Of a DNA stretch of 51,014 bases, positions 3,023 through 48,184 are shown in pieces (the stretch's first letter is position 1; the number at the start of each line of letters is the position of its first letter). The stretch is from the sequence record NC_054896.1. One strand, written 5' to 3'. The notes beneath the pieces were generated by a model. The model saw only the letters and a list, made by a program, of their open reading frames with translations. It was not told the DNA's origin and searched no databases. A program made the translations under genes and the position numbers. The DNA comes from Escherichia phage tiwna.

Positions 3023-3205
3023 ATGAAAACTGGTATTATTGTTCTTTTCCTGATCCTTTTCGGCAGCCATTTAACCATTAACTATGAGGGCATTATGGCC
3101 TTTTGGGGCAACTTGATGGTGTTTGCCGCTGGTTCAATTACTGGCTACTCTGACGGGAAAAAGGACGGCGTTCGCAAGATGCTGATGGGGCTTAAACAAA
3201 AATAA
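3023..3205 (+). CDS. small membrane protein (60 aa)
   Basis: RBS gaggtaaaa before ATG; two hydrophobic segments. Confidence 0.45.
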   Translation: MKTGIIVLFLILFGSHLTINYEGIMAFWGNLMVFAAGSITGYSDGKKDGVRKMLMGLKQK

Positions 3206-3216
3206 GGGGATCTGAA

Positions 3217-3507
3217 ATGGCAAACAAAACTTACCGCAAACTACTGGTTAACGCTTTTGAAAACATCGCGCAGTGTAACAAGTGGAACGACTCTAAACAC
3301 TCGCCAGTCACAATGAAGCGCGCCGGATTCAAAAATGCTCGTTCATGGGCGCGAGCTTTCGCAGCTTGCTATATGCCGGATGGCGGACTAGGAGCGATGG
3401 ACGATTTTTTGATCAACATGATAGAGGAAGCGGCGCGAGAGGATCGACCGCTGACACAGCTAGATTTTGATGACTTCGCGCGCGATGAGCTTTACTATCT
3501 GAGCTAA
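3217..3507 (+). CDS. hypothetical protein (96 aa)
   Basis: RBS aagggg before ATG; stop immediately followed by the box at 3508. Confidence 0.5.
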   Translation: MANKTYRKLLVNAFENIAQCNKWNDSKHSPVTMKRAGFKNARSWARAFAACYMPDGGLGAMDDFLINMIEEAAREDRPLTQLDFDDFARDELYYLS

Positions 3508-3525
3508 TAGCACTTTTTGTTAAAA
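3508..3525 (+). promoter_or_regulatory. conserved box followed by a hairpin
   Basis: TAGCACTTTTTGTTAAAA; hairpin aaggggcatttgataaagtgccctt. Confidence 0.45.
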
Positions 3526-3582
3526 CTTCCGAAGGGGCATTTGATAAAGTGCCCTTATTGAAGCGAAACAGAGGAAAGCGCA

Positions 3583-3795
3583 ATGAAAATCAAAATCACC
3601 AAAATCGACACTATCAACGGAGACGGATCAATCACTCTTGAGCAATGCGGTTTGGTTGTTGGTGATGTGCTGGAAGTTGACGGACATTTCAGCGACGGAT
3701 CTTATTGTGTTATTGCGCCGCGTAACAGCGAGTTTATCAAGGCTGGCGACAATATTAGTGTTAACCATGACGAATGCGAGGTAGTAGAAGAATGA
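3583..3795 (+). CDS. small acidic hypothetical protein (70 aa)
   Basis: RBS gaggaaag before ATG; preceded by a box-plus-hairpin promoter module. Confidence 0.5.
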   Translation: MKIKITKIDTINGDGSITLEQCGLVVGDVLEVDGHFSDGSYCVIAPRNSEFIKAGDNISVNHDECEVVEE

Positions 3796-5632: not shown

Positions 5633-6160
5633 ATGGCTAAAAACGTTGAGCCTGCTGTAAAGGCATTAAATTTCAAAGAGTTATACAATAAAACTTATGG
5701 CGATATTGTTACGCTAAACAACCGCCACAAGTACACGCCGGAACAGGTTTTTGATATGGCGATCCGCTATTTCACTTGGGCCGAAGAGAATCACATCCAG
5801 GCGGCTGAAACTGCTTCCTTTCAGGGTGACGTGTACGAGAGCAGAGTTTACAAGCCTCGCGTTTTCACGGTTAACGGATTCAGCTTGTATCTCGGCGTGA
5901 CTGAGGCCGCCGTAAGCAAATGGCGTAAAGAGCCTGGATTCTGCGATGTGATGGAGTTTGTTGATAAAGTAATTTACGAGCAAAAATTCCAGCTTGCGGC
6001 AAATAACATGATTAATGCTGGATTTATCGGTAAAGAGATCGGAGTAGAGAAGCCAGCAACAGTGAGCGTTGAAGCGAGCGCGGCAGCTAATGAAAGCATT
6101 GACGCAGTAACTGCCGATGAGGTGAAAGAGGCTGTGATTGATATTCTGGAGCAACTTTAA
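5633..6160 (+). CDS. terS: terminase small subunit
   Basis: Position immediately upstream of and overlapping terL; RBS aaaggagg; size about 175 aa. Confidence 0.6.
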   Translation: MAKNVEPAVKALNFKELYNKTYGDIVTLNNRHKYTPEQVFDMAIRYFTWAEENHIQAAETASFQGDVYESRVYKPRVFTVNGFSLYLGVTEAAVSKWRKEPGFCDVMEFVDKVIYEQKFQLAANNMINAGFIGKEIGVEKPATVSVEASAAANESIDAVTADEVKEAVIDILEQL

Positions 6161-26671: not shown

Positions 26672-26727
26672 CTTCAATACTCCTTAGTTGTCGTTGTCTG
26701 TAACTATACACGATCCGACAAGCGGCG

Positions 26728-26744
26728 TTTAGCAAAAAGTGCTA
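26728..26744 (-). promoter_or_regulatory. conserved palindromic box (minus orientation) with -10 at 26703-26708
   Basis: TAGCACTTTTTGCTAAA on the minus strand, 19 bp from TATAGT, upstream of the lipoprotein operon. Confidence 0.5.
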
Positions 26745-26854
26745 CTTGTTATTTTTTGTTTTTCGGTGTTATCGAATTTAAGACGGCGTAAATTTAGCGC
26801 AAATTTTAGCCAACATAAGGGCAATAAACAATCAATAAAATAGATATATACATA

Positions 26855-27060
26855 TAAAATCAATAGTTTATTTATTTATGTATGTATATTTGTTTTTTCT
26901 TGTTATCTGTGTTTCTTGTGGTTTTGGTTGTTTGTGGTGATTTTTCTTTCTGAGTATCTGTATGTGCCATCATTCATGTGTATGTATATAATCCGGCGTA
27001 TCTGAGAGAACAAGGGAACAAGAAAAATAACACATATTAATCATTGACTTACGTTTCAAA
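26855..27060. repeat. GT-rich strand-biased noncoding region A, homologous to 47395-47660
   Basis: Shared blocks ttatttatttat, ttgttatct, gtatctgtatgtg and gggaacaagaaaaa; top strand almost devoid of C over about 80 bp. Confidence 0.5.
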
Positions 27061-27114
27061 TTTGTTTTATTGCAATCTAAGAACGTTTAGAAAACAGAAA
27101 AAACAAAACAACTA

Positions 27115-27142
27115 TTGACTAAATCAACCAAATGGCTACAAT
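27115..27142 (+). promoter_or_regulatory. sigma70-like promoter (TTGACT-16-TACAAT) for the recombination module
   Basis: -35 at 27115-27120 and -10 at 27137-27142, about 30 nt before the exonuclease RBS. Confidence 0.5.
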
Positions 27143-27172
27143 GCACACACAAAGCAACAAGGAGCATCAAAG

Positions 27173-31985: not shown

Positions 31986-32915
31986 TTATAGCAGTGATTC
32001 GGGCTTGTATAGTTTTCTTTCTACGCCCTGTTTAAAATTATCGTTAACAGGCATCATTATGTCAAGACCTCTTTCCTCTGCCGCGATTATCACATCACGA
32101 TCATCTTTCCGGCAGATTACGCGCATTCTTCTTTCTCCTTTATATCTATGCGCAACCATTTCAAGATTTGAAGGAGTAAAGCAAGCCCACACTTCTTGAC
32201 CAGTTGATAAATGAACATGCTGGGAATCAACCCAATCAAGGCACAAATAGATCGTCTTATCTGTGCTACCTGTTTTAACAACAGATCCGCGCGTGTAGTC
32301 GCGAGCTAAAAACCAATCCTTTCCATCCTCATCAATGAAAAGCACGTTACACATTTCATCATCAAGCCCGTCATCATGCACCAAGTGACAAGGTAGCGCG
32401 TGAATGTATCGACCATCCTTGACGCCGCAATCATAATGACAACCTTCCGGCGGATATATCCCCTCATAAACGCTTAAAGGTGTGCGATCGAATTTTAATG
32501 TTTTTGCCATCACTTTTTCGCAGCATTCATGACTTGCCTGTTTCCCGAACGAGTAACCAGAAGAACGCGAAGCGCGCTTGTTTGCTCTGATCCTGTAATC
32601 CTGCGGCACTTTTCCGAGGAAGCGGCCCAAAATGTTGATGGCCTCGCTGTAAGGTTCGCCAGTTAATTTCATTAACCAACCGATCCCCGTGTCGTTACCG
32701 CATACGTTGCAGATCGCGCCGCCGTCGCCCTCTTCATTTAGCTTATCAGTCCATCTAAAACGATCCTTACCGCCGCAGTGTGGGCAAGGCTGATGCTTTT
32801 TGTTGAAAACATCGCTATGCAGTCCGCAAATGCTTTGTAGTGCTTCACGCCATAACCCCTTCATATATGGCAAAACATCTTCTTTCTGATAGGTCATAAA
32901 GTTTTCAGTATTCAT
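31986..32915 (-). CDS. DNA primase-like zinc-binding protein
   Basis: CPHCGG-x18-CNVCGN zinc-ribbon pair; ATG 32915 follows a terminator, so the track's upstream extension is rejected; adjacent to the helicase. Confidence 0.45.
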   Translation of the reverse strand: MNTENFMTYQKEDVLPYMKGLWREALQSICGLHSDVFNKKHQPCPHCGGKDRFRWTDKLNEEGDGGAICNVCGNDTGIGWLMKLTGEPYSEAINILGRFLGKVPQDYRIRANKRASRSSGYSFGKQASHECCEKVMAKTLKFDRTPLSVYEGIYPPEGCHYDCGVKDGRYIHALPCHLVHDDGLDDEMCNVLFIDEDGKDWFLARDYTRGSVVKTGSTDKTIYLCLDWVDSQHVHLSTGQEVWACFTPSNLEMVAHRYKGERRMRVICRKDDRDVIIAAEERGLDIMMPVNDNFKQGVERKLYKPESLL

Positions 32916-32925
32916 GGCAAACCTC

Positions 32926-32963
32926 AATAAAAAAGCCCAGCAAATATTATCATTTCGCTGGGC
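32926..32963 (-). terminator. rho-independent terminator after the HTH gene
   Basis: Hairpin gcccagc...gctgggc with a T-run on the minus strand. Confidence 0.55.
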
Positions 32964-32970
32964 CTTATCA

Positions 32971-33447
32971 TTAGCTATTCGTGCTGTTATCACCTTTGTA
33001 GAATCTTCCGCCTGGTTCGTAGTCTGAATTTTTGACTACGCGCAACATTTCGTATTTGTCGCAACGGGTAGTAAGAGGCTTGCCGTTAGAATCAAACCGC
33101 AGATCTGGACGACAAAACGAGGCGCGGTATCCTTTGCATCCATTATATTTGTAGTCGTTATGCACCTTTTGTGCTCCAGCGGCTGAAATCATACCACGCT
33201 TTCGCCACTGGTTAACGACTTGCTGAGATACGCGCAGACGTCGAGCCATAGCAGGAACACCGCCGTAATACTCGATCAGAATGTCAAGGCGAGATTTTAG
33301 GCTTGCTTTTACCTCATCTCGCAGGATAAGAAATCCGGTTCGGTGTTTTCGTGGCTTTTTGTCTTTACCTCGTCGCGTTCCGTTGTTACCGTTAATAGTG
33401 CGCTTGTCGATCTCACCCGTAGACACTGCAATTCGTGCATCTTTCAT
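32971..33447 (-). CDS. putative DNA-binding protein (HTH)
   Basis: Candidate HTH segment AMARRLRVSQQVVNQWRKRG; basic N-terminus; divergent from the helicase gene. Confidence 0.45.
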   Translation of the reverse strand: MKDARIAVSTGEIDKRTINGNNGTRRGKDKKPRKHRTGFLILRDEVKASLKSRLDILIEYYGGVPAMARRLRVSQQVVNQWRKRGMISAAGAQKVHNDYKYNGCKGYRASFCRPDLRFDSNGKPLTTRCDKYEMLRVVKNSDYEPGGRFYKGDNSTNS

Positions 33448-33459
33448 CTAGTCACCTCA

Positions 33460-33477
33460 TAGCATTTTTTGTTAAAA
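33460..33477 (+). promoter_or_regulatory. conserved box with -10 TATTAT at 33497-33502, in the divergent region between the HTH and helicase genes
   Basis: TAGCATTTTTTGTTAAAA with the 19-bp spacing to the -10. Confidence 0.5.
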
Positions 33478-33534
33478 CAGTTTATTGTAATGAGTCTATT
33501 ATATACTCCAAATGGCATTTTTTAAAGGTTTAAG

Positions 33535-36761: not shown

Positions 36762-37019
36762 ATGGAAAAAGAGAGAAGCGTTTATTTAAATGAAACTGGC
36801 GAGTGGTTGTTATTTCGCGCTATGGTGTGCGATGCACTTGATAAAAACCCTAACGTGAAAAAGATGATTGATTGCGATCCGTGGGAATTTTCAAGCGCAT
36901 TAGATATGAGCTTTGAGGAGACAAGAAAACTCCCGCTTGAAAAATGGCACGAACAAATCAGAAATGACATGCAAGAGTTTGTCGATTCGTGGAATTTTCA
37001 GCACGGAATGATCCACTAA
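36762..37019 (+). CDS. hypothetical protein (85 aa)
   Basis: RBS ggag before ATG. Confidence 0.45.
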   Translation: MEKERSVYLNETGEWLLFRAMVCDALDKNPNVKKMIDCDPWEFSSALDMSFEETRKLPLEKWHEQIRNDMQEFVDSWNFQHGMIH

Positions 37020-37065
37020 TAGCACTTTTTGTTAAAACGCCCGGCCTAGTGTCGGGCATAATTAT
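37020..37065 (+). promoter_or_regulatory. conserved box plus hairpin plus -10 CATAAT; left arm of the ~46-bp inverted repeat
   Basis: TAGCACTTTTTGTTAAAAcgcccggcctagtgtcgggCATAAT, nearly identical to the reverse complement of 40234-40279. Confidence 0.55.
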
Positions 37066-37094
37066 TTCAACGAAGCAAGCATGAGGAAATAAAA

Positions 37095-40199: not shown

Positions 40200-40233
40200 A
40201 ATTTTACCTTTTGGTTGTTTCGTTTCGATGAAA

Positions 40234-40279
40234 CAAATATACCCGACACTAGGCCGGGCGTTTTAACAAAAAATGCTAT
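40234..40279 (-). promoter_or_regulatory. conserved box plus hairpin plus -10; right arm of the ~46-bp inverted repeat
   Basis: Reverse complement reads ATAGCATTTTTTGTTAAAAcgcccggcctagtgtcgggTATATT. Confidence 0.55.
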
Positions 40280-40470
40280 TCCATACGCTTTACCGTAACC
40301 AGTAATACACCATCATCATTGCATAAAACATGTTCAGTGGTGCTAAAAGCGCGCATATCTGAATAAAGTAGCGTAAGTAAAGCATGAATAAAATCCTCAT
40401 GTGATATTGAATTTACGGCGCAGTGCTTCAAGATCTTGTCTATTAGCTTTTGCCTGGAACAATTCATCAT
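40276..40470 (-). CDS. hypothetical protein (64 aa)
   Basis: GGGGAG RBS; stop codon is the TAG of the box; overlaps the upstream gene by 74 nt out of frame. Confidence 0.4.
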   Translation of the reverse strand: MMNCSRQKLIDKILKHCAVNSISHEDFIHALLTLLYSDMRAFSTTEHVLCNDDGVLLVTVKRME

Positions 40471-40792
40471 CGCCCATCTCCCCTATTCTCGCCATATCCC
40501 TGATCCAGTCGTTGCGCATACCATCCAGGCTATACAATTCGAATCCGAAAGGCCGCTTTGACGATCCTTTGGACCAGTATTTACCGCAGACCCCATCTAT
40601 ATAGCCAGCCGTCATCATTCTTGCGCAAAATTCCTTAGATGCAAGGCTGGCGAACATTCGCGGCGTAAGTCCGGCGGCCCGTGCGAGCCGCTCACATTCT
40701 CTATGCTGATAGATAAATTTGGCTATGTGCTGCCTGTTAAACCAGTCGTATGACTCACACCATTTATACAGATCAAGCAAAAACATAATCAT
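40397..40792 (-). CDS. hypothetical protein (131 aa)
   Basis: ATGA coupling to the upstream ATPase gene. Confidence 0.45.
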   Translation of the reverse strand: MIMFLLDLYKWCESYDWFNRQHIAKFIYQHRECERLARAAGLTPRMFASLASKEFCARMMTAGYIDGVCGKYWSKGSSKRPFGFELYSLDGMRNDWIRDMARIGEMGDDELFQAKANRQDLEALRRKFNIT

Positions 40793-42369
40793 CCCAGCAG
40801 TATTGGATTGACAAAAATAACACCATTAATAACACAAACATAATTTCTTTCTTCCAGCATTGGCAGCAAGTGCCCTTCTATCCTCTTCATTACGCCAGCT
40901 TGACCAACGAAAGGTTTTACCTTTCTCGCTGATTCGTACAGGGCGCGAATATTCAGAATCCCTTTATTAGCCTTGCCGTGTCTAGTGATCAATTCAATCA
41001 ATTTGCCCATTTCAGCATCATCACCAGCATAACCAGAAGCATTGGCGGCGCTAATGTATGTTTTGCTCAATTCCTGAAACATGATCAGCGCCTCTTGCAT
41101 TGTTTCCACGTCGATCTCTTTCGACTTCTGCTGGTATCCAGCAGGATTAAACCAGTTGCGGATAACATGCAGGACGGAAGCAAGCCTGATCACCTGTTTA
41201 TCCATTTTACCCAGCGCACCGCGTAACATTGTATGAGAATACTTTCCGCCGTCTGCAAGATGCGGTTCCATATCCTGGCGAGCAATGTTGAGCACTCGCA
41301 TAGCTGAACGGCTTATTTTCAGCGATATATTTGATTCGCTCATGATGTTATGCACCAATTGATAATATTGGGCCTTCAATTCAGGATCCACCGCCTCATA
41401 GGTAGAATCACCATTTTCATCAATGAATGAGCGACGGCCTAAGAATGATTCCTCACGGACCAACAAAAAGCGCTCACTCACACCGATACCGCGCGATCCA
41501 GCGTCCATGATTCCGCTTATCGTTTCATCCTGGGCTATAACGCTCATACATCCAAGCGCGCGAAAACTCATGTTATTGTCAGCATTAGCACGGGCGATTG
41601 ATACGTGACCATTATCCCACGCCTTAAGCACTAGCTCGCTGTTAGTCTTCCTTTCGCTATTGGCATAGGTCAAGCCTAACAGGCTGTTAATACTTGTTGC
41701 TTCGTCAGATATTACGGCAAAGTTACCTTGCTTGTTGTTGATTTTCGCCAAGCCTTCTGGAGTTGTATCTGAAACAGGGAAAGTTATATCACACATTTTT
41801 TCCAGCTTCTCCTCCAGATCCTCTTTTTCCTGGTATAGAGATTCCATATCAGCGCCTGATCTTTCGCTTTTCATCTCCTTTGCAAGACCTGCCAACTTTG
41901 CCTGTATTTTCTTTCTTTCCTTGCGGCGTTGCTCGTTGATCTTCTCAACTTCCGCAATCATCGGAGCAATAGCCATGCTGTTGATCGCAGATTTACCAGT
42001 TGACGGCGGCTGGCTTGTAACGACGTAAAGCGCAGTCGGCTGATCGGTCCCGTGATAGTCAACCGTAAAGCGTCCAAGCATGGCGGCAGAAATGCAGCCG
42101 ATAAAGTGCATGTAAGCCGATGATTCAGGGAATTGAACGGATCGCGCAATGCTGCGTGATAACTTTCCGACAACATCAATATCATTACCAAGAGAAATTA
42201 CGGGGTAGCGATCGTGACCGCTATTTACATCCTTCACGTCGCCCCAAAAGCTGGACGACTGGCGATAGCCGTTAGCCTGAATTGATACGCGAACTGGTGA
42301 AAGGTTCTGGCTTTCAGCCATAGCGATTATTTGCTGTGGAGTTAATTTGTTCGTTTCTAATGAAAACAT
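40789..42369 (-). CDS. P-loop NTPase of unknown function (526 aa)
   Basis: Walker A SQPPSTGKSAI and Walker B-like FAVISDEA; GGAG RBS; first gene after the promoter box at 42423. Confidence 0.5.
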   Translation of the reverse strand: MFSLETNKLTPQQIIAMAESQNLSPVRVSIQANGYRQSSSFWGDVKDVNSGHDRYPVISLGNDIDVVGKLSRSIARSVQFPESSAYMHFIGCISAAMLGRFTVDYHGTDQPTALYVVTSQPPSTGKSAINSMAIAPMIAEVEKINEQRRKERKKIQAKLAGLAKEMKSERSGADMESLYQEKEDLEEKLEKMCDITFPVSDTTPEGLAKINNKQGNFAVISDEATSINSLLGLTYANSERKTNSELVLKAWDNGHVSIARANADNNMSFRALGCMSVIAQDETISGIMDAGSRGIGVSERFLLVREESFLGRRSFIDENGDSTYEAVDPELKAQYYQLVHNIMSESNISLKISRSAMRVLNIARQDMEPHLADGGKYSHTMLRGALGKMDKQVIRLASVLHVIRNWFNPAGYQQKSKEIDVETMQEALIMFQELSKTYISAANASGYAGDDAEMGKLIELITRHGKANKGILNIRALYESARKVKPFVGQAGVMKRIEGHLLPMLEERNYVCVINGVIFVNPILLG

Positions 42370-47046: not shown

Positions 47047-47105
47047 TGCTATCTCCTGAGCGGTTCGTTTTGATGTGTGTAATGTACCCGATCAGGTGGC
47101 CTGAG

Positions 47106-47124
47106 TTTTAACAAAAAGTGCTAT
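47106..47124 (-). promoter_or_regulatory. conserved box, minus orientation, with -10 at 47081-47086
   Basis: TAGCACTTTTTGTTAAAA then 19 bp then TACATT. Confidence 0.5.
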
Positions 47125-47394
47125 TTGACGGTTAGCGCCAGGATTGTGATCGAAATAATCAAAAGTAATCATTCGTAATCAAATCACGTCAAAATGATGA
47201 TTGCCTTTGCAAATTTGATGAGAAAAGCAATCACGTTTAATCATTGGTTGCAGGGGAGATAGTGAAACCTTCCCCTCTCGCCTCAATTTTCCGCCTGGCT
47301 GTCAGTGGTTGTTATGTTCCGTTCCCGCCTGTTCTTTTGTTGACCTTCCGCAAAATACGATAACAAAAAATAACAAACAATACCTATATAATAC

Positions 47395-47660
47395 ATTGAA
47401 AAATAAGGATTATTTATTTATATGTATCTATATATTCTCTTTTGTTATCTTGGTTATTGTGGTATTTGGTGGGGTATATAGTTTTTGTGTATCTGTATGT
47501 GTGTATGGGTATGTAGGGGCATATATATCTATATGGCACTTTCCGCGAGAAAACTTCGATAACAGGCAATGATAACATTGATTTATAAGGAAAAATAACG
47601 CCTATATTGTTATTGTGCCACCATGTAAAATTGATAAAACACGCGGGAACAAGAAAAAAC
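47395..47660. repeat. GT-rich strand-biased noncoding region B, homologous to 26855-27060
   Basis: Shared blocks ttatttatttat, ttgttatct, gtatctgtatgtg and gggaacaagaaaaa; G-runs ggtgggg and gtagggg. Confidence 0.5.
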
Positions 47661-47662
47661 AG

Positions 47663-47691
47663 TTGACACATTAAATAGCATTATTGATAAT
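47663..47691 (+). promoter_or_regulatory. near-consensus sigma70 promoter (TTGACA-17-GATAAT)
   Basis: -35 at 47663-47668 and -10 at 47686-47691, about 28 nt before the AGGAGG RBS of gene 47720. Confidence 0.6.
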
Positions 47692-47719
47692 GCCCACACC
47701 TAACAACCAGGAGGCAGAA

Positions 47720-48184
47720 ATGAGCGAGCAATCATTCACTGACACGCTGCGCCGTGCCGCTATTATGCTGGCTAATGGCGAGGAAGAGACGATCAAGATT
47801 CCTGACGCGTATTTGCAGGTCCACATGTTCGGCAAGAAGTCGGCAAGCAATCCGGCGGCCTACATTCGCCAGATCATGAGTCGAGTGCCAGAAGTCGCCG
47901 AGCGGGGGCGCGTATCCGTTACCCGTGGCGTTTACGGGCCGGAAGATGAAAACTTCGGTAGCACTTTCTACGAGGTGCGGATTGTTGAAGGCCGTCGCAA
48001 GGTTTACAACAAAGAGGCACTGGAAAGGGCAGTACGCCAGGCTAAGCGCAAGGTTGCAGAGGCGATCATTGATATGTCACCCAACCTGGCAAACTATGCG
48101 CCGGAAGAGTACGAAACATTATCAAAGGCCGTCGCTGACTTTCACGCGATGATCAAAAAAACTTTCCTGGAGGATGAGCAATGA
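47720..48184 (+). CDS. hypothetical protein (154 aa), likely immediate-early
   Basis: Consensus promoter plus AGGAGG RBS; internal ATG of track ORF 47684. Confidence 0.55.
   Translation: MSEQSFTDTLRRAAIMLANGEEETIKIPDAYLQVHMFGKKSASNPAAYIRQIMSRVPEVAERGRVSVTRGVYGPEDENFGSTFYEVRIVEGRRKVYNKEALERAVRQAKRKVAEAIIDMSPNLANYAPEEYETLSKAVADFHAMIKKTFLEDEQ

What the first reader, a model, noticed from the sequence alone, without database searches (positions are those of the whole stretch)
47290..47700. Homologous GT-rich noncoding hub B driving a highly expressed rightward early gene
This is the second copy of the hub, with shared blocks ttatttatttat, ttgttatct, gtatctgtatgtg and gggaacaagaaaaa. It has a strongly strand-biased G/T composition with G-runs (ggtgggg, ggg, gtagggg) that could form non-B structures, and repeated GATAACA elements. 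It ends in a near-consensus sigma70 promoter (TTGACA-17-GATAAT) and an AGGAGG RBS for gene 47720. It sits at the boundary between the leftward and rightward early clusters, so it may be the site where transcription of injected DNA begins.
Basis: seen in the sequence. Interest (0 to 1): 0.6.

Follow-up and report, generated by a model that had tools for sequence, protein, structure and literature searches.

The report
Paired origin-like early-promoter cassettes, T1-like phage
This noncoding stretch is one of two related cassettes found throughout the T1-like phage family, each combining the easiest-to-melt DNA in the genome, short repeats on both sides and a strong host-type promoter, which makes them the best candidates for these phages' still-unmapped replication origins.

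Summary
The window is a T1-like coliphage (Drexlerviridae, Warwickvirus; 98.7% identical to phage atuna here). The four blocks each occur exactly twice, in the same order, at 26868-27027 and 47410-47658. The two regions are homologous (z about 7 against shuffles that keep local composition). Their cores are the two most G+T-rich 100-nt windows of the genome. TTGACA-17-GATAAT and AGGAGG precede gene 47720, a homolog of TLS gp01.

The new result is that in 9 of 9 Drexlerviridae genomes from three subfamilies, the two least stable 60-bp duplex segments lie in these two intergenic regions, about 330 nt upstream of the gp01-like and RecE-like genes. Short "nAACA" repeats such as GATAACA flank them, partly in opposite orientation. 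The phage encodes an MCM-like helicase with a C-terminal winged helix.

My best reading (confidence 0.45, inferred) is an origin-like element, repeats flanking an unwinding segment, fused to a sigma70 early promoter. It resembles SaPI ori in build and SPP1 oriL/oriR in being paired.

The G-quadruplex idea fails. G+T richness is confined to Tempevirinae. The pac end mapped in TLS and the start of the T1 terminal repeat fall in the same intergenic region, left of the finding at about 47130-47260. Nothing was tested experimentally.

The parts
47065..47126 (-). Promoter element for the leftward operon, of the phage's 21-nt direct-repeat type. ATAGCACTTTTTGTTAAAAC reads on the - strand at 47105-47126, followed by a short hairpin and the -10-like TACATT.
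   Evidence: It belongs to a family of at least 18 copies in the window. The family is described for TLS, with function unknown (PMC11447400).
47127..47270 (.). Probable pac or genome-end region. It holds the densest TGATT/AATCA cluster in the genome and the motif AAATGATGATTG at 47192-47203. It lies left of the finding's coordinates.
   Evidence: There are 7 pentamers per 150 nt against a mean of 0.8 (sd 0.93). The same genome-wide maximum falls at TLS record position 1, which is the mapped pac end, and at the start of the T1 2800-bp terminal repeat. The assignment in the window rests on synteny and is inferred.
47348..47378 (+). Left module, CCGCAAAATACGATAACAAAAAATAACAAAC: a CCGC..AAA motif followed by two ATAACA repeats 10 nt apart.
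   Evidence: The equivalent module is present in hub A and in TLS, Samwise, A14a and tonijn.
47384..47443 (.). The second least stable 60-bp duplex segment of the genome (unwinding-element-like). It is the best conserved part of hub B between the window and tonijn.
   Evidence: Nearest-neighbour dG is -0.988 kcal/mol per step, against a genome mean of -1.364 (sd 0.085). It is about 95% identical to tonijn while its flanks diverge.
47440..47462 (-). Repeats in the opposite orientation (TTTTGTTATCTTGGTTATTGTGG). With 47358-47378 they form an inverted arrangement around the unstable segment.
47410..47520 (+). G+T-rich tract (C 5%), including GGTGGGG, GGG and GGGG.
   Evidence: It is one of the top two G+T-rich windows in 5 of 7 genomes tested. 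The tract is weak or absent in T1 and Rtp.
47543..47577 (+). Right module, CCGCGAGAAAACTTCGATAACAGGCAATGATAACA: a CCGCG..AAA motif followed by two GATAACA direct repeats 13 nt apart.
   Evidence: Relatives carry 2-3 nAACA direct repeats at 8-13 nt spacing in the same place.
47645..47662 (+). A GGGAACA repeat plus an A-tract directly upstream of the -35 hexamer (UP-element-like).
   Evidence: The UP-element reading is inferred from position and composition.
47663..47691 (+). Sigma70-type promoter TTGACA-17-GATAAT, the counterpart of TLS P01.
47709..47722 (+). RBS AGGAGG and the ATG of gene 47720.
47720..48184 (+). First rightward gene, a DUF7174 protein homologous to TLS gp01.
   Evidence: Pfam E 2.5e-28. 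tblastn finds it in 207 phage records, including TLS gp01.
26672..27172 (+). Hub A, the paralogous cassette upstream of the RecE-like exonuclease. It has the same order of parts: direct-repeat promoter element on the - strand at 26727-26745, TGTT repeats at 26745-26774, least stable segment at 26830-26889, IHF consensus at 26858-26870, G+T tract at 26867-26966, right module at 26993-27033 and promoter TTGACT-16-TACAAT at 27115-27142.
   Evidence: The intergenic region is 73% identical to Hanrivervirus relatives, against 77% for the adjacent exonuclease gene.
40789..42369 (-). Candidate binding protein acting in trans: a DUF3987 'helicase' with an MCM-like AAA+ fold and a C-terminal winged helix (about residues 449-519).

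Best explanation
Hub B (core 47348-47719) and hub A (26782-27172) are two paralogous copies of a roughly 450-bp cis-acting cassette that is conserved across Drexlerviridae.

The right end of each cassette is a host sigma70 early promoter with an A-rich upstream tract, a shared leader and a strong RBS. It drives the gp01-like small early genes from hub B and the recE-erf-ssb operon from hub A.

The upstream 300 bp is, in my reading, an origin-like nucleoprotein assembly site. It consists of an easily melted TA-rich segment, which is the least stable DNA in the genome, flanked by short 'nAACA' repeats (GATAACA, GRGAACA) at roughly helical spacing, some pointing towards each other across the unstable segment.

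Inferred mechanism: a phage DNA-binding protein occupies the repeats on both sides. The best candidate is the MCM-like helicase with a C-terminal winged helix at 40789-42369. The Cro-like HTH protein at 32971-33447 is the alternative. Negative supercoiling generated behind the diverging transcription units helps open the unstable segment. The helicase then loads itself, and the P4-alpha-like primase (31986-32993) primes synthesis.

Two copies could act as two origins, or as one origin plus a helper or fork-arrest site. In hub B the cassette sits next to the packaging start (about 47130-47260).

Shown here: the sequence anatomy, its statistical support, family-wide conservation and the protein folds. 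Inferred: protein binding, melting, replication initiation and promoter timing.
For: 1. The two hubs are homologous and collinear.

2. In 9 of 9 genomes from three subfamilies, the two least stable 60-bp windows of the whole genome lie in these two intergenic regions, 4.4-5.8 sd from the mean. The genomes are the window, A14a, C4, A16a, A120, TLS and Samwise (Tempevirinae), T1 (Tunavirinae) and Rtp (Braunvirinae).

3. The hubs are internally repetitive far beyond controls in all 6 genomes tested. T1 has all 6 genomic TGTAACA copies and 18 of 20 ATATATA copies in its hubs.

4. Repeats lie on both sides of the unstable segment. In hub B, two + strand repeats (47360, 47370) and two - strand repeats (47443, 47452) bracket it.

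5. Hub A, although noncoding, is about as conserved as the neighbouring gene (73% against 77%). The TA-rich core is the most conserved part of hub B against tonijn.

6. The phage encodes an MCM-like helicase with a C-terminal winged helix and a primase homologous to the P4 alpha primase domain (E 4.5e-14).

7. Precedents from the literature. SaPI Rep helicases, some of them MCM-like, bind 5-6-nt iterons through a C-terminal winged helix, and their ori has iterons on both sides of an AT-rich centre pointing in opposite directions (PMC9371898). [quoted passage not shown] P4 carries the same iteron in ori and in crr.

8. No origin is known for T1-like phages: the TLS paper searched for one and found none.

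9. The promoter part matches the in-silico P01 and P51 of TLS.
Against: There are no experimental data on replication, binding or transcription for any T1-like hub.

The repeats are short and degenerate, with a core of only about AACA, unlike the near-identical iterons of P4 or SaPIs. Window and tonijn have identical winged-helix sequences and 96% identical hub A, yet their hub B repeat flavours differ. A strictly sequence-specific iteron-binder pairing is therefore not shown.

Heptamer sharing between hub A and hub B of the same genome is only weakly higher than between genomes (17.7 against 10.9).

The helicase gene is 4.7 kb from the hub, not adjacent to it as in SaPIs.

The cassette always includes the promoter, so the upstream part could be purely transcriptional.

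AT-rich, unstable DNA is common upstream of strong promoters.

Cumulative GC skew follows gene orientation and says nothing about an origin.
Confidence: 0.45

Rival explanations
1. The hubs are purely transcriptional control regions. The repeats are operators or activator sites for a phage regulator, for example the Cro/YdaS-like HTH protein at 32971-33447, or for a host protein such as IHF or H-NS. They switch the two sigma70 early promoters on or off, and the TA/GT-rich DNA is an extended upstream activating or silencing region. Replication starts elsewhere.
For: The paralogous unit always includes the promoter, leader and RBS. P01 and P51 are two of only three sigma70-type intergenic promoters predicted in TLS, and the third drives the HTH protein together with the primase. 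The HTH protein is conserved family-wide, and its putative recognition helix varies between lineages. An exact IHF consensus, one of 5 in the genome, lies at the edge of the hub A core and is conserved in Tempevirinae. The direct repeats just upstream of a conserved TATAAT-like hexamer at the left edge of the core resemble activator-dependent promoters.
Against: The regulator's own promoter region (33448-33534) has none of the repeats. About 300 bp of conserved upstream DNA is far more than known UP or activator sites need. There is no A-tract phasing or curvature signal. Hub B of the window lacks the IHF site. This reading does not explain why this DNA is the least stable in 9 of 9 genomes.
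Confidence: 0.28
2. The hubs serve packaging or recombination. The G+T-rich, TA-rich DNA is a preferred site for recombination or for terminase action, helping concatemer formation or module exchange. Hub B is essentially the pac region.
For: The mapped TLS pac end and the start of the T1 terminal repeat fall in the hub B intergenic region. Mosaic junctions against tonijn lie inside hub B, at about 47334 and 47441. Hub A directly precedes recE-erf-ssb. From general knowledge, GT-rich DNA is a preferred pairing substrate of RecA-type recombinases.
Against: The pac-equivalent position (about 47130-47260) lies left of, and is separate from, the paralogous cassette. Hub A has no TGATT cluster, and no genome end has been mapped there. 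The G+T bias is absent in T1 and Rtp, whereas the unstable core and the repeats are kept.
Confidence: 0.1
3. The hubs encode something: a small protein (ORFs 47309-47572 on the + strand, 47414-47671 on the - strand, annotated as hypothetical proteins in relatives) or a structured noncoding RNA.
For: ORFs of 85-87 codons exist, and similar ones are annotated in MikeNSara and other relatives. The + strand RNA folds marginally better than shuffles (z -1.97).
Against: ORF strand, frame and length are not conserved among relatives. The translations are low-complexity products of the skewed composition. There is no Rfam match. The - strand fold gives z -0.19. Apart from the downstream sigma70 promoter, no promoter-like or terminator-like site is found in the region.
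Confidence: 0.05
4. The G-runs form a G-quadruplex or another non-B structure, and that structure is the functional element.
For: GGTGGGG, GGG and GGGG lie within 47468-47519 on one strand.
Against: There are only three runs of 3 or more G, with a 32-nt gap between the first and second. Hub A has no G-run of 3 or more in its core. Tonijn, T1 and Rtp do not conserve the runs.
Confidence: 0.03

Closest known systems
SaPI / SCCmec replication origins with self-loading Rep or Cch helicases
   Same: An AT-rich, meltable centre with short (5-7 nt) repeats on both sides, some in opposite orientation. The element encodes an MCM-like helicase with a C-terminal winged helix and a separate primase.
   Different: The repeats here are degenerate. 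The helicase gene is 4.7 kb away instead of directly upstream. There are two copies per genome. A sigma70 promoter and, in Tempevirinae, a G+T-rich tract are built into the unit. Binding has not been tested.
Bacillus phage SPP1 oriL / oriR
   Same: A virulent pac-type siphovirus with two similarly organised cis elements (direct repeats plus an AT-rich unwinding element) many kb apart. One of them is proposed to trigger the switch to recombination-dependent concatemer synthesis, involving an exonuclease, an annealing protein and an SSB. Here, hub A sits directly upstream of recE-erf-ssb.
   Different: SPP1 uses a dedicated origin-binding protein, a loader and a DnaB-type helicase. Its oriL lies inside a gene. 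There is no sequence similarity.
Satellite phage P4 ori and crr
   Same: Two separated noncoding elements share the same short repeat, bound by a winged-helix domain. The window's primase is homologous to the P4 alpha primase domain (E 4.5e-14). The TLS repeat GTGAACA overlaps the reverse complement of the P4 iteron TGTTCACC.
   Different: P4 iterons are near-identical octamers, and primase, SF3 helicase and winged helix are fused in one protein. The window's repeats are GATAACA or GRGAACA. The sequence resemblance to TLS may be chance.
TLS in-silico promoters P01 and P51, and the T1-like pac region
   Same: The promoter at 47663-47691 and the one at 27115-27142 are the positional counterparts of TLS P01 and P51. 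The TLS pac end and the T1 terminal repeat start in the same intergenic region as hub B.
   Different: Neither the TLS paper nor the SU57 paper describes the upstream TA/GT-rich repeat-flanked cassette or its duplication. The TLS paper states that no origin-like repeats were found.

Membership tests
Sigma70-dependent bacterial or phage early promoter | -35 and -10 hexamers close to TTGACA and TATAAT, with a 16-18 bp spacer | tested here: met
   TTGACA-17-GATAAT is an 11/12 match.
Sigma70-dependent bacterial or phage early promoter | Conserved position upstream of a gene in relatives | tested here: met
   TTGAC(A/T)-16/17-TAnAAT aligns in hubs A and B of most of the Tempevirinae relatives aligned, and equals TLS P01 and P51.
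Sigma70-dependent bacterial or phage early promoter | Mapped transcription start and early timing | not testable with these tools
   No transcriptome of a T1-like phage was found in the library.
Iteron-type origin of self-loading helicases (SaPI/SCCmec type) | AT-rich, easily melted central region | tested here: met
   The hubs hold the two least stable 60-bp windows genome-wide in 9 of 9 genomes.
Iteron-type origin of self-loading helicases (SaPI/SCCmec type) | [quoted passage not shown] | tested here: inconclusive
   Hub B has ATAACA twice on the + strand (47360, 47370) and TGTTAT plus GGTTAT on the - strand (47443, 47452). Hub A is less clear, and the repeats are degenerate.
Iteron-type origin of self-loading helicases (SaPI/SCCmec type) | Cognate helicase-initiator with a C-terminal winged helix encoded by the same element | tested here: met
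   [not shown]
Iteron-type origin of self-loading helicases (SaPI/SCCmec type) | Origin immediately downstream of the rep gene | tested here: not met
   The helicase gene ends 4.7 kb from hub B.
Iteron-type origin of self-loading helicases (SaPI/SCCmec type) | Specific binding, melting and replication activity | not testable with these tools
   This needs EMSA or footprinting, KMnO4 probing and a plasmid ori assay.
P4 ori/crr system | Two separated cis elements sharing the same repeat | tested here: met
   The hubs are 20.5 kb apart and share GATAACA, GRGAACA and longer blocks.
P4 ori/crr system | Near-identical TGTTCACC octamers | tested here: not met
   The P4 repeats were read from NC_001609. 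The window has no such octamer array, and only the TLS GTGAACA resembles it.
P4 ori/crr system | Fused primase-SF3 helicase-winged helix alpha protein | tested here: not met
   Only the primase domain is homologous. The helicase is a separate, MCM-like protein.
DnaA/oriC-type origin | DnaA boxes and GATC clusters | tested here: not met
   No TTWTNCACA occurs in any hub of the 8 genomes checked. GATC is depleted in the hubs (2-3 per kb against 6.1 per kb genome-wide).
G-quadruplex-forming element | Four G-runs with short loops, conserved in the paralog and in relatives | tested here: not met
   Three runs with a 32-nt gap; absent in hub A, tonijn, T1 and Rtp.
pac site of headful-packaging phages | Coincides with mapped genome ends in relatives | tested here: inconclusive
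   The TLS pac end and the T1 repeat start map to the same intergenic region, but at the equivalent of about 47130-47260, outside 47290-47700. No end data exist for this phage.
Known structured RNA family (Rfam) | Match at the gathering score | tested here: not met
   There are 0 matches in the whole window.

The most novel reading that the evidence does not exclude
The two hubs are the long-sought replication origins of T1-like phages. Together they form a two-site system in which an MCM-like, winged-helix helicase loads itself at repeat-flanked unwinding elements that are opened with help from diverging early transcription. One copy (hub A, next to recE-erf-ssb) would act as a second origin or as a fork-arrest site that switches replication to recombination-driven concatemer synthesis. 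The G+T-rich strand would be a lineage-specific loading or priming strand.
Probability: 0.3. Interest if true: 0.7.

Novelty: new variant of a known kind. Interest (0 to 1): 0.55.

Why it matters
T1 is one of the seven classic T phages, and Drexlerviridae are common in sewage, gut samples and phage-therapy collections. Even so, their replication origin, their early transcription programme and the role of their large intergenic regions remain undescribed. The 2024 TLS re-annotation looked for an origin and found none. This analysis gives two precise, family-wide candidate sites together with a candidate binding protein, which makes the origin question testable by marker-frequency sequencing, footprinting and plasmid ori assays. 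It also shows that gene calls over these regions in database records are probably spurious, and it indicates where genome engineering should avoid cutting. If the reading is wrong, the hubs are still the main early-promoter cassettes of the family.

Tried and rejected
- **Rfam and tRNA scans of the whole window:** nothing found.
- **RNA folding of 47340-47662:** z -1.97 on the + strand and -0.19 on the - strand, so there is no convincing structured RNA.
- **Coding potential of the hub ORFs:** not conserved in strand, frame or length across 8 genomes.
- **Intrinsic curvature (AA/TT periodicity at 8-13 bp):** below the shuffle level in both hubs.
- **DnaA boxes and GATC clustering:** absent or depleted.
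- **G-quadruplex:** too few G-runs, and not conserved.
- **Phage-specific repeat co-varying with a protein:** the idea looked attractive (window GATAACA, TLS GTGAACA, T1 GTGTAACA), but tonijn has an identical helicase winged helix and a different set of hub B repeats. The A-versus-B heptamer-sharing matrix is only weakly diagonal. I therefore treat the repeat as a degenerate nAACA core.
- **Fur-box, OmpR-box and H-NS-motif resemblances to GATAAC or GTTACA:** noted by eye and from memory only; not conserved between lineages, so dropped.
- **P4 alpha C-terminal origin-binding domain:** no homolog in the window by tblastn. A sequence search of the helicase against the PDB found nothing, so fold comparison was needed.
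- **The search for related loci in viral contigs with gp01:** gave only two near-identical loci.
- **Literature:** one search was wasted on over-general terms. The Rtp genome paper could not be retrieved.

Full report
**Identity of the window.** The 674-nt intergenic region 47047-47720 is 97.6-98.7% identical to 14 records of Escherichia/Shigella phages, including atuna, MikeNSara, JLBYU10 and EC167. MikeNSara is classified as Drexlerviridae, Tempevirinae, Warwickvirus. The window is therefore a T1-like virulent siphovirus, probably a whole genome. The gene order matches T1, TLS and Rtp:
- small rightward genes, then terminase and the structural genes;
- a short leftward cor-like cluster, followed by hub A;
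- recE-erf-ssb;
- a leftward tail fibre, primase and HTH protein;
- a rightward SF2 helicase, Dam methylase and lysis genes;
- a leftward cluster that includes a DUF3987 helicase, followed by hub B.

**Check of the observation.**
- The four named blocks each occur exactly twice in 51 kb, on the same strand and in the same order.
- The two intergenic regions align with a local score of 82, against 30.8 +/- 6.8 for block shuffles that preserve local composition. The similarity is therefore homology, not shared composition.
- The G+T bias is real but local. 26867-26966 (0.83) and 47414-47513 (0.78) are the two most G+T-rich 100-nt windows of the genome, against a mean of 0.50 and sd of 0.061. Over the whole 47290-47700, G+T is 0.525.
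- GATAACA occurs four times in hub B and twice in hub B's paralog, hub A.
- The promoter TTGACA-17-GATAAT (47663-47691) is one of three 11/12 matches in the genome.
- AGGAGG lies 5 nt before the ATG at 47720.
- The downstream gene is a DUF7174 protein homologous to TLS gp01. tblastn finds it in 207 phage records.

**What the literature already holds.** The 2024 re-annotation of TLS (PMC11447400) reports only three intergenic sigma70-like promoters: P01, P51 and P57. It also reports 18 intergenic 21-nt direct repeats, aaATAGCACnnnTTGnTAAAA, of unknown function. It states that no origin-like repeats were found. By position, P01 is the hub B promoter, P51 is the hub A promoter upstream of recE, and P57 drives the HTH protein and primase. 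The window has at least 18 copies of the same 21-nt element, one of which (47105-47126, - strand) drives the leftward operon out of hub B.

TLS record position 1 is the experimentally mapped pac end. The paper gives about 5,882 bp to a HindIII site and about 2.7 kb to an EcoRV site. I find HindIII at 5876 and EcoRV at 2733. The T1 record starts with its 2800-bp terminal repeat. Both points fall inside the hub B intergenic region, about 110 nt beyond the leftward promoter element in TLS. The Rtp record is also opened inside this intergenic region. The SU57 paper likewise places the T1 pac site in this untranslated region.

The densest TGATT/AATCA cluster of the genome lies at TLS position 1, at the T1 start and at window 47110-47260. 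The probable packaging start of this phage is therefore at about 47130-47260, just left of the finding. This is inferred.

**New comparative result.** I assembled nine Drexlerviridae genomes and scanned them whole: the window; A14a, C4, A16a and A120; TLS; the Klebsiella phage Samwise; T1; and Rtp.
- In all nine, the two least stable 60-bp duplex windows of the entire genome (nearest-neighbour free energy, 4.4-5.8 sd from the mean) lie in hub A and hub B, about 330-345 nt upstream of the recE-like and gp01-like start codons. In the window these are 26830-26889 and 47384-47443.
- The G+T-rich tract directly to the right of this segment gives the two top G+T windows in 5 of 7 genomes. It is weaker in TLS and Samwise and absent in T1 and Rtp. 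It is therefore a Tempevirinae elaboration, not the defining feature.
- In T1, 18 of 20 genomic ATATATA heptamers and all 6 TGTAACA heptamers are in the hubs.
- Heptamer repetitiveness of the hub pair exceeds random genomic pairs and shuffles in all six genomes tested.
- Hub A is 73% identical between the window and Hanrivervirus relatives, against 77% for the adjoining exonuclease gene. This argues for purifying selection on noncoding DNA.

**Anatomy.** A multiple alignment of 12 hubs and inspection of T1, TLS, Rtp, Samwise and tonijn give a common order. Hub B coordinates are given first, with the hub A counterpart after "/" where one could be placed:
1. a left module: a CCGC/CCGGCG..AAA motif plus two nAACA direct repeats about 10 nt apart (47348-47378);
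2. a TA-rich, least stable segment beginning with a CTATATAAT-like string (47384-47443 / 26830-26889);
3. opposite-strand repeats, TTGTTATCT.. (47440-47462);
4. the G+T-rich tract (47410-47520 / 26867-26966);
5. a right module: CCGCG..AAA plus 2-3 nAACA direct repeats at 8-13 nt spacing (47543-47577 / 26993-33);
6. about 70-80 nt of spacer;
7. an A-rich tract;
8. TTGAC(A/T)-16/17-TAnAAT (47663-47691 / 27115-27142);
9. a shared leader, AATGC.CACAC..CAAC.AGGAG, and the start codon.

The paralogous unit therefore runs from the left module to the RBS.

**Proteins that could act on it.**
- The primase (31986-32993) is homologous to the primase domain of P4 alpha.
- A Cro/YdaS-like HTH protein (32971-33447) is conserved in the family and is co-transcribed with the primase.

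**Mechanism proposed.** By analogy, the hubs look like origins for a self-loading helicase.
- In SaPIs, Rep helicases, some of them MCM-like, recognise 5-6-nt iterons through a C-terminal winged helix. Their ori has iterons on both sides of an AT-rich centre, pointing in opposite directions (PMC9371898).
- SPP1 has two similarly built origins 13 kb apart. One is thought to arrest forks and trigger recombination-dependent concatemer synthesis (PMC6316719).
- P4 has the same iteron in ori and in crr.

I therefore propose that the repeats are bound on both sides of the unstable segment, that diverging transcription adds negative supercoiling, that the segment opens, and that the helicase and primase start synthesis. 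All of these steps are inferred.

**Weaknesses.**
- The repeats are degenerate. Tonijn has an identical winged helix, 99.4% identical helicase and 96% identical hub A, yet the flanks of its hub B core are replaced by diverged sequence with other repeat flavours (GTTAACAG, GTGAACAG, ATAACAG). Only the TA-rich core stays about 95% identical.
- Repeat sharing within a genome is only weakly above sharing between genomes.
- The helicase gene is not adjacent to the hub.
- The promoter is always part of the unit, so a purely transcriptional role cannot be excluded. In that case the repeats would be operators of the HTH protein, and IHF would bind at the conserved hub A site.

**Readings rejected.**
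- G-quadruplex: three G-runs, not conserved.
- Intrinsic curvature: no phasing.
- DnaA/oriC type: no DnaA boxes, and GATC is depleted.
- Structured RNA or small protein.

**Verdict.** The non-B DNA idea is not supported. I read them as origin-like early-promoter regions (confidence 0.45), with a purely regulatory role as the main rival (0.28).

Noticed in passing
window, at least 18 sites, e.g. 903, 2213, 3507, 7725, 35948, 37019, 48438, 50115 (+) and 12369, 16119, 40279, 43115, 45314, 45820, 47124 (-): The element ATAGCACnnnTTGnTAAA recurs about 18-22 nt upstream of a -10-like hexamer, often with a hairpin in between, and about 75 nt upstream of start codons. It is the element reported for TLS with unknown function. 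Its 3' part (TTAAAA) could be a weak -35 hexamer. Two - strand copies (12369, 16119) lie inside the + strand structural gene block.
   Followed up: partly
window 47127-47270: The genome-wide maximum of TGATT/AATCA pentamers, plus AAATGATGATTG, matches the position of the mapped TLS pac end and the start of the T1 terminal repeat. This is probably the packaging start of this phage.
   Followed up: partly
window 47334-47380 and 47441-47720, compared with L017 (tonijn): Against tonijn (same genus), 47047-47333 is about 98% identical and the TA-rich core 47381-47440 about 95%. The left module and everything right of about 47441, including the gp01 gene, are replaced by diverged sequence. Mosaic junctions therefore lie inside hub B, whereas hub A is 96% identical throughout.
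   Followed up: partly
[not shown]
   Followed up: yes
window 32971-33447 (-): A Cro/YdaS-like HTH protein with a basic N-terminus and a conserved Cys-containing C-terminal part is conserved in T1, TLS, Rtp and the Klebsiella phage. It is co-transcribed with the primase from the third sigma70-like promoter region (33448-33534), which also carries a direct-repeat promoter element for the opposite helicase gene.
   Followed up: partly
L001 (MikeNSara) 3133-3626; window ORFs 47309-47572 (+) and 47414-47671 (-): Relatives annotate short hypothetical proteins across hub B. These ORFs are not conserved in strand, frame or length among relatives and look like by-products of the stop-poor A+C-rich strand.
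   Followed up: yes
L008-L011 (MG065641, MG065657, MG065671, MG065636): Four UNVERIFIED 'Campylobacter phage' records are T1-like Drexlerviridae, with hub architecture and genes very close to the coliphages. The host assignment looks doubtful.
   Followed up: no
whole window: GATC occurs 311 times against about 193 expected from base composition. The phage carries methyltransferase genes. The two hubs are relatively GATC-poor.
   Followed up: partly
window 37018-37074 and 40224-40280: A 57-nt inverted repeat, 91% complementary, is formed by two direct-repeat promoter elements facing each other across 3.1 kb. It is the longest inverted repeat in the genome.
   Followed up: no
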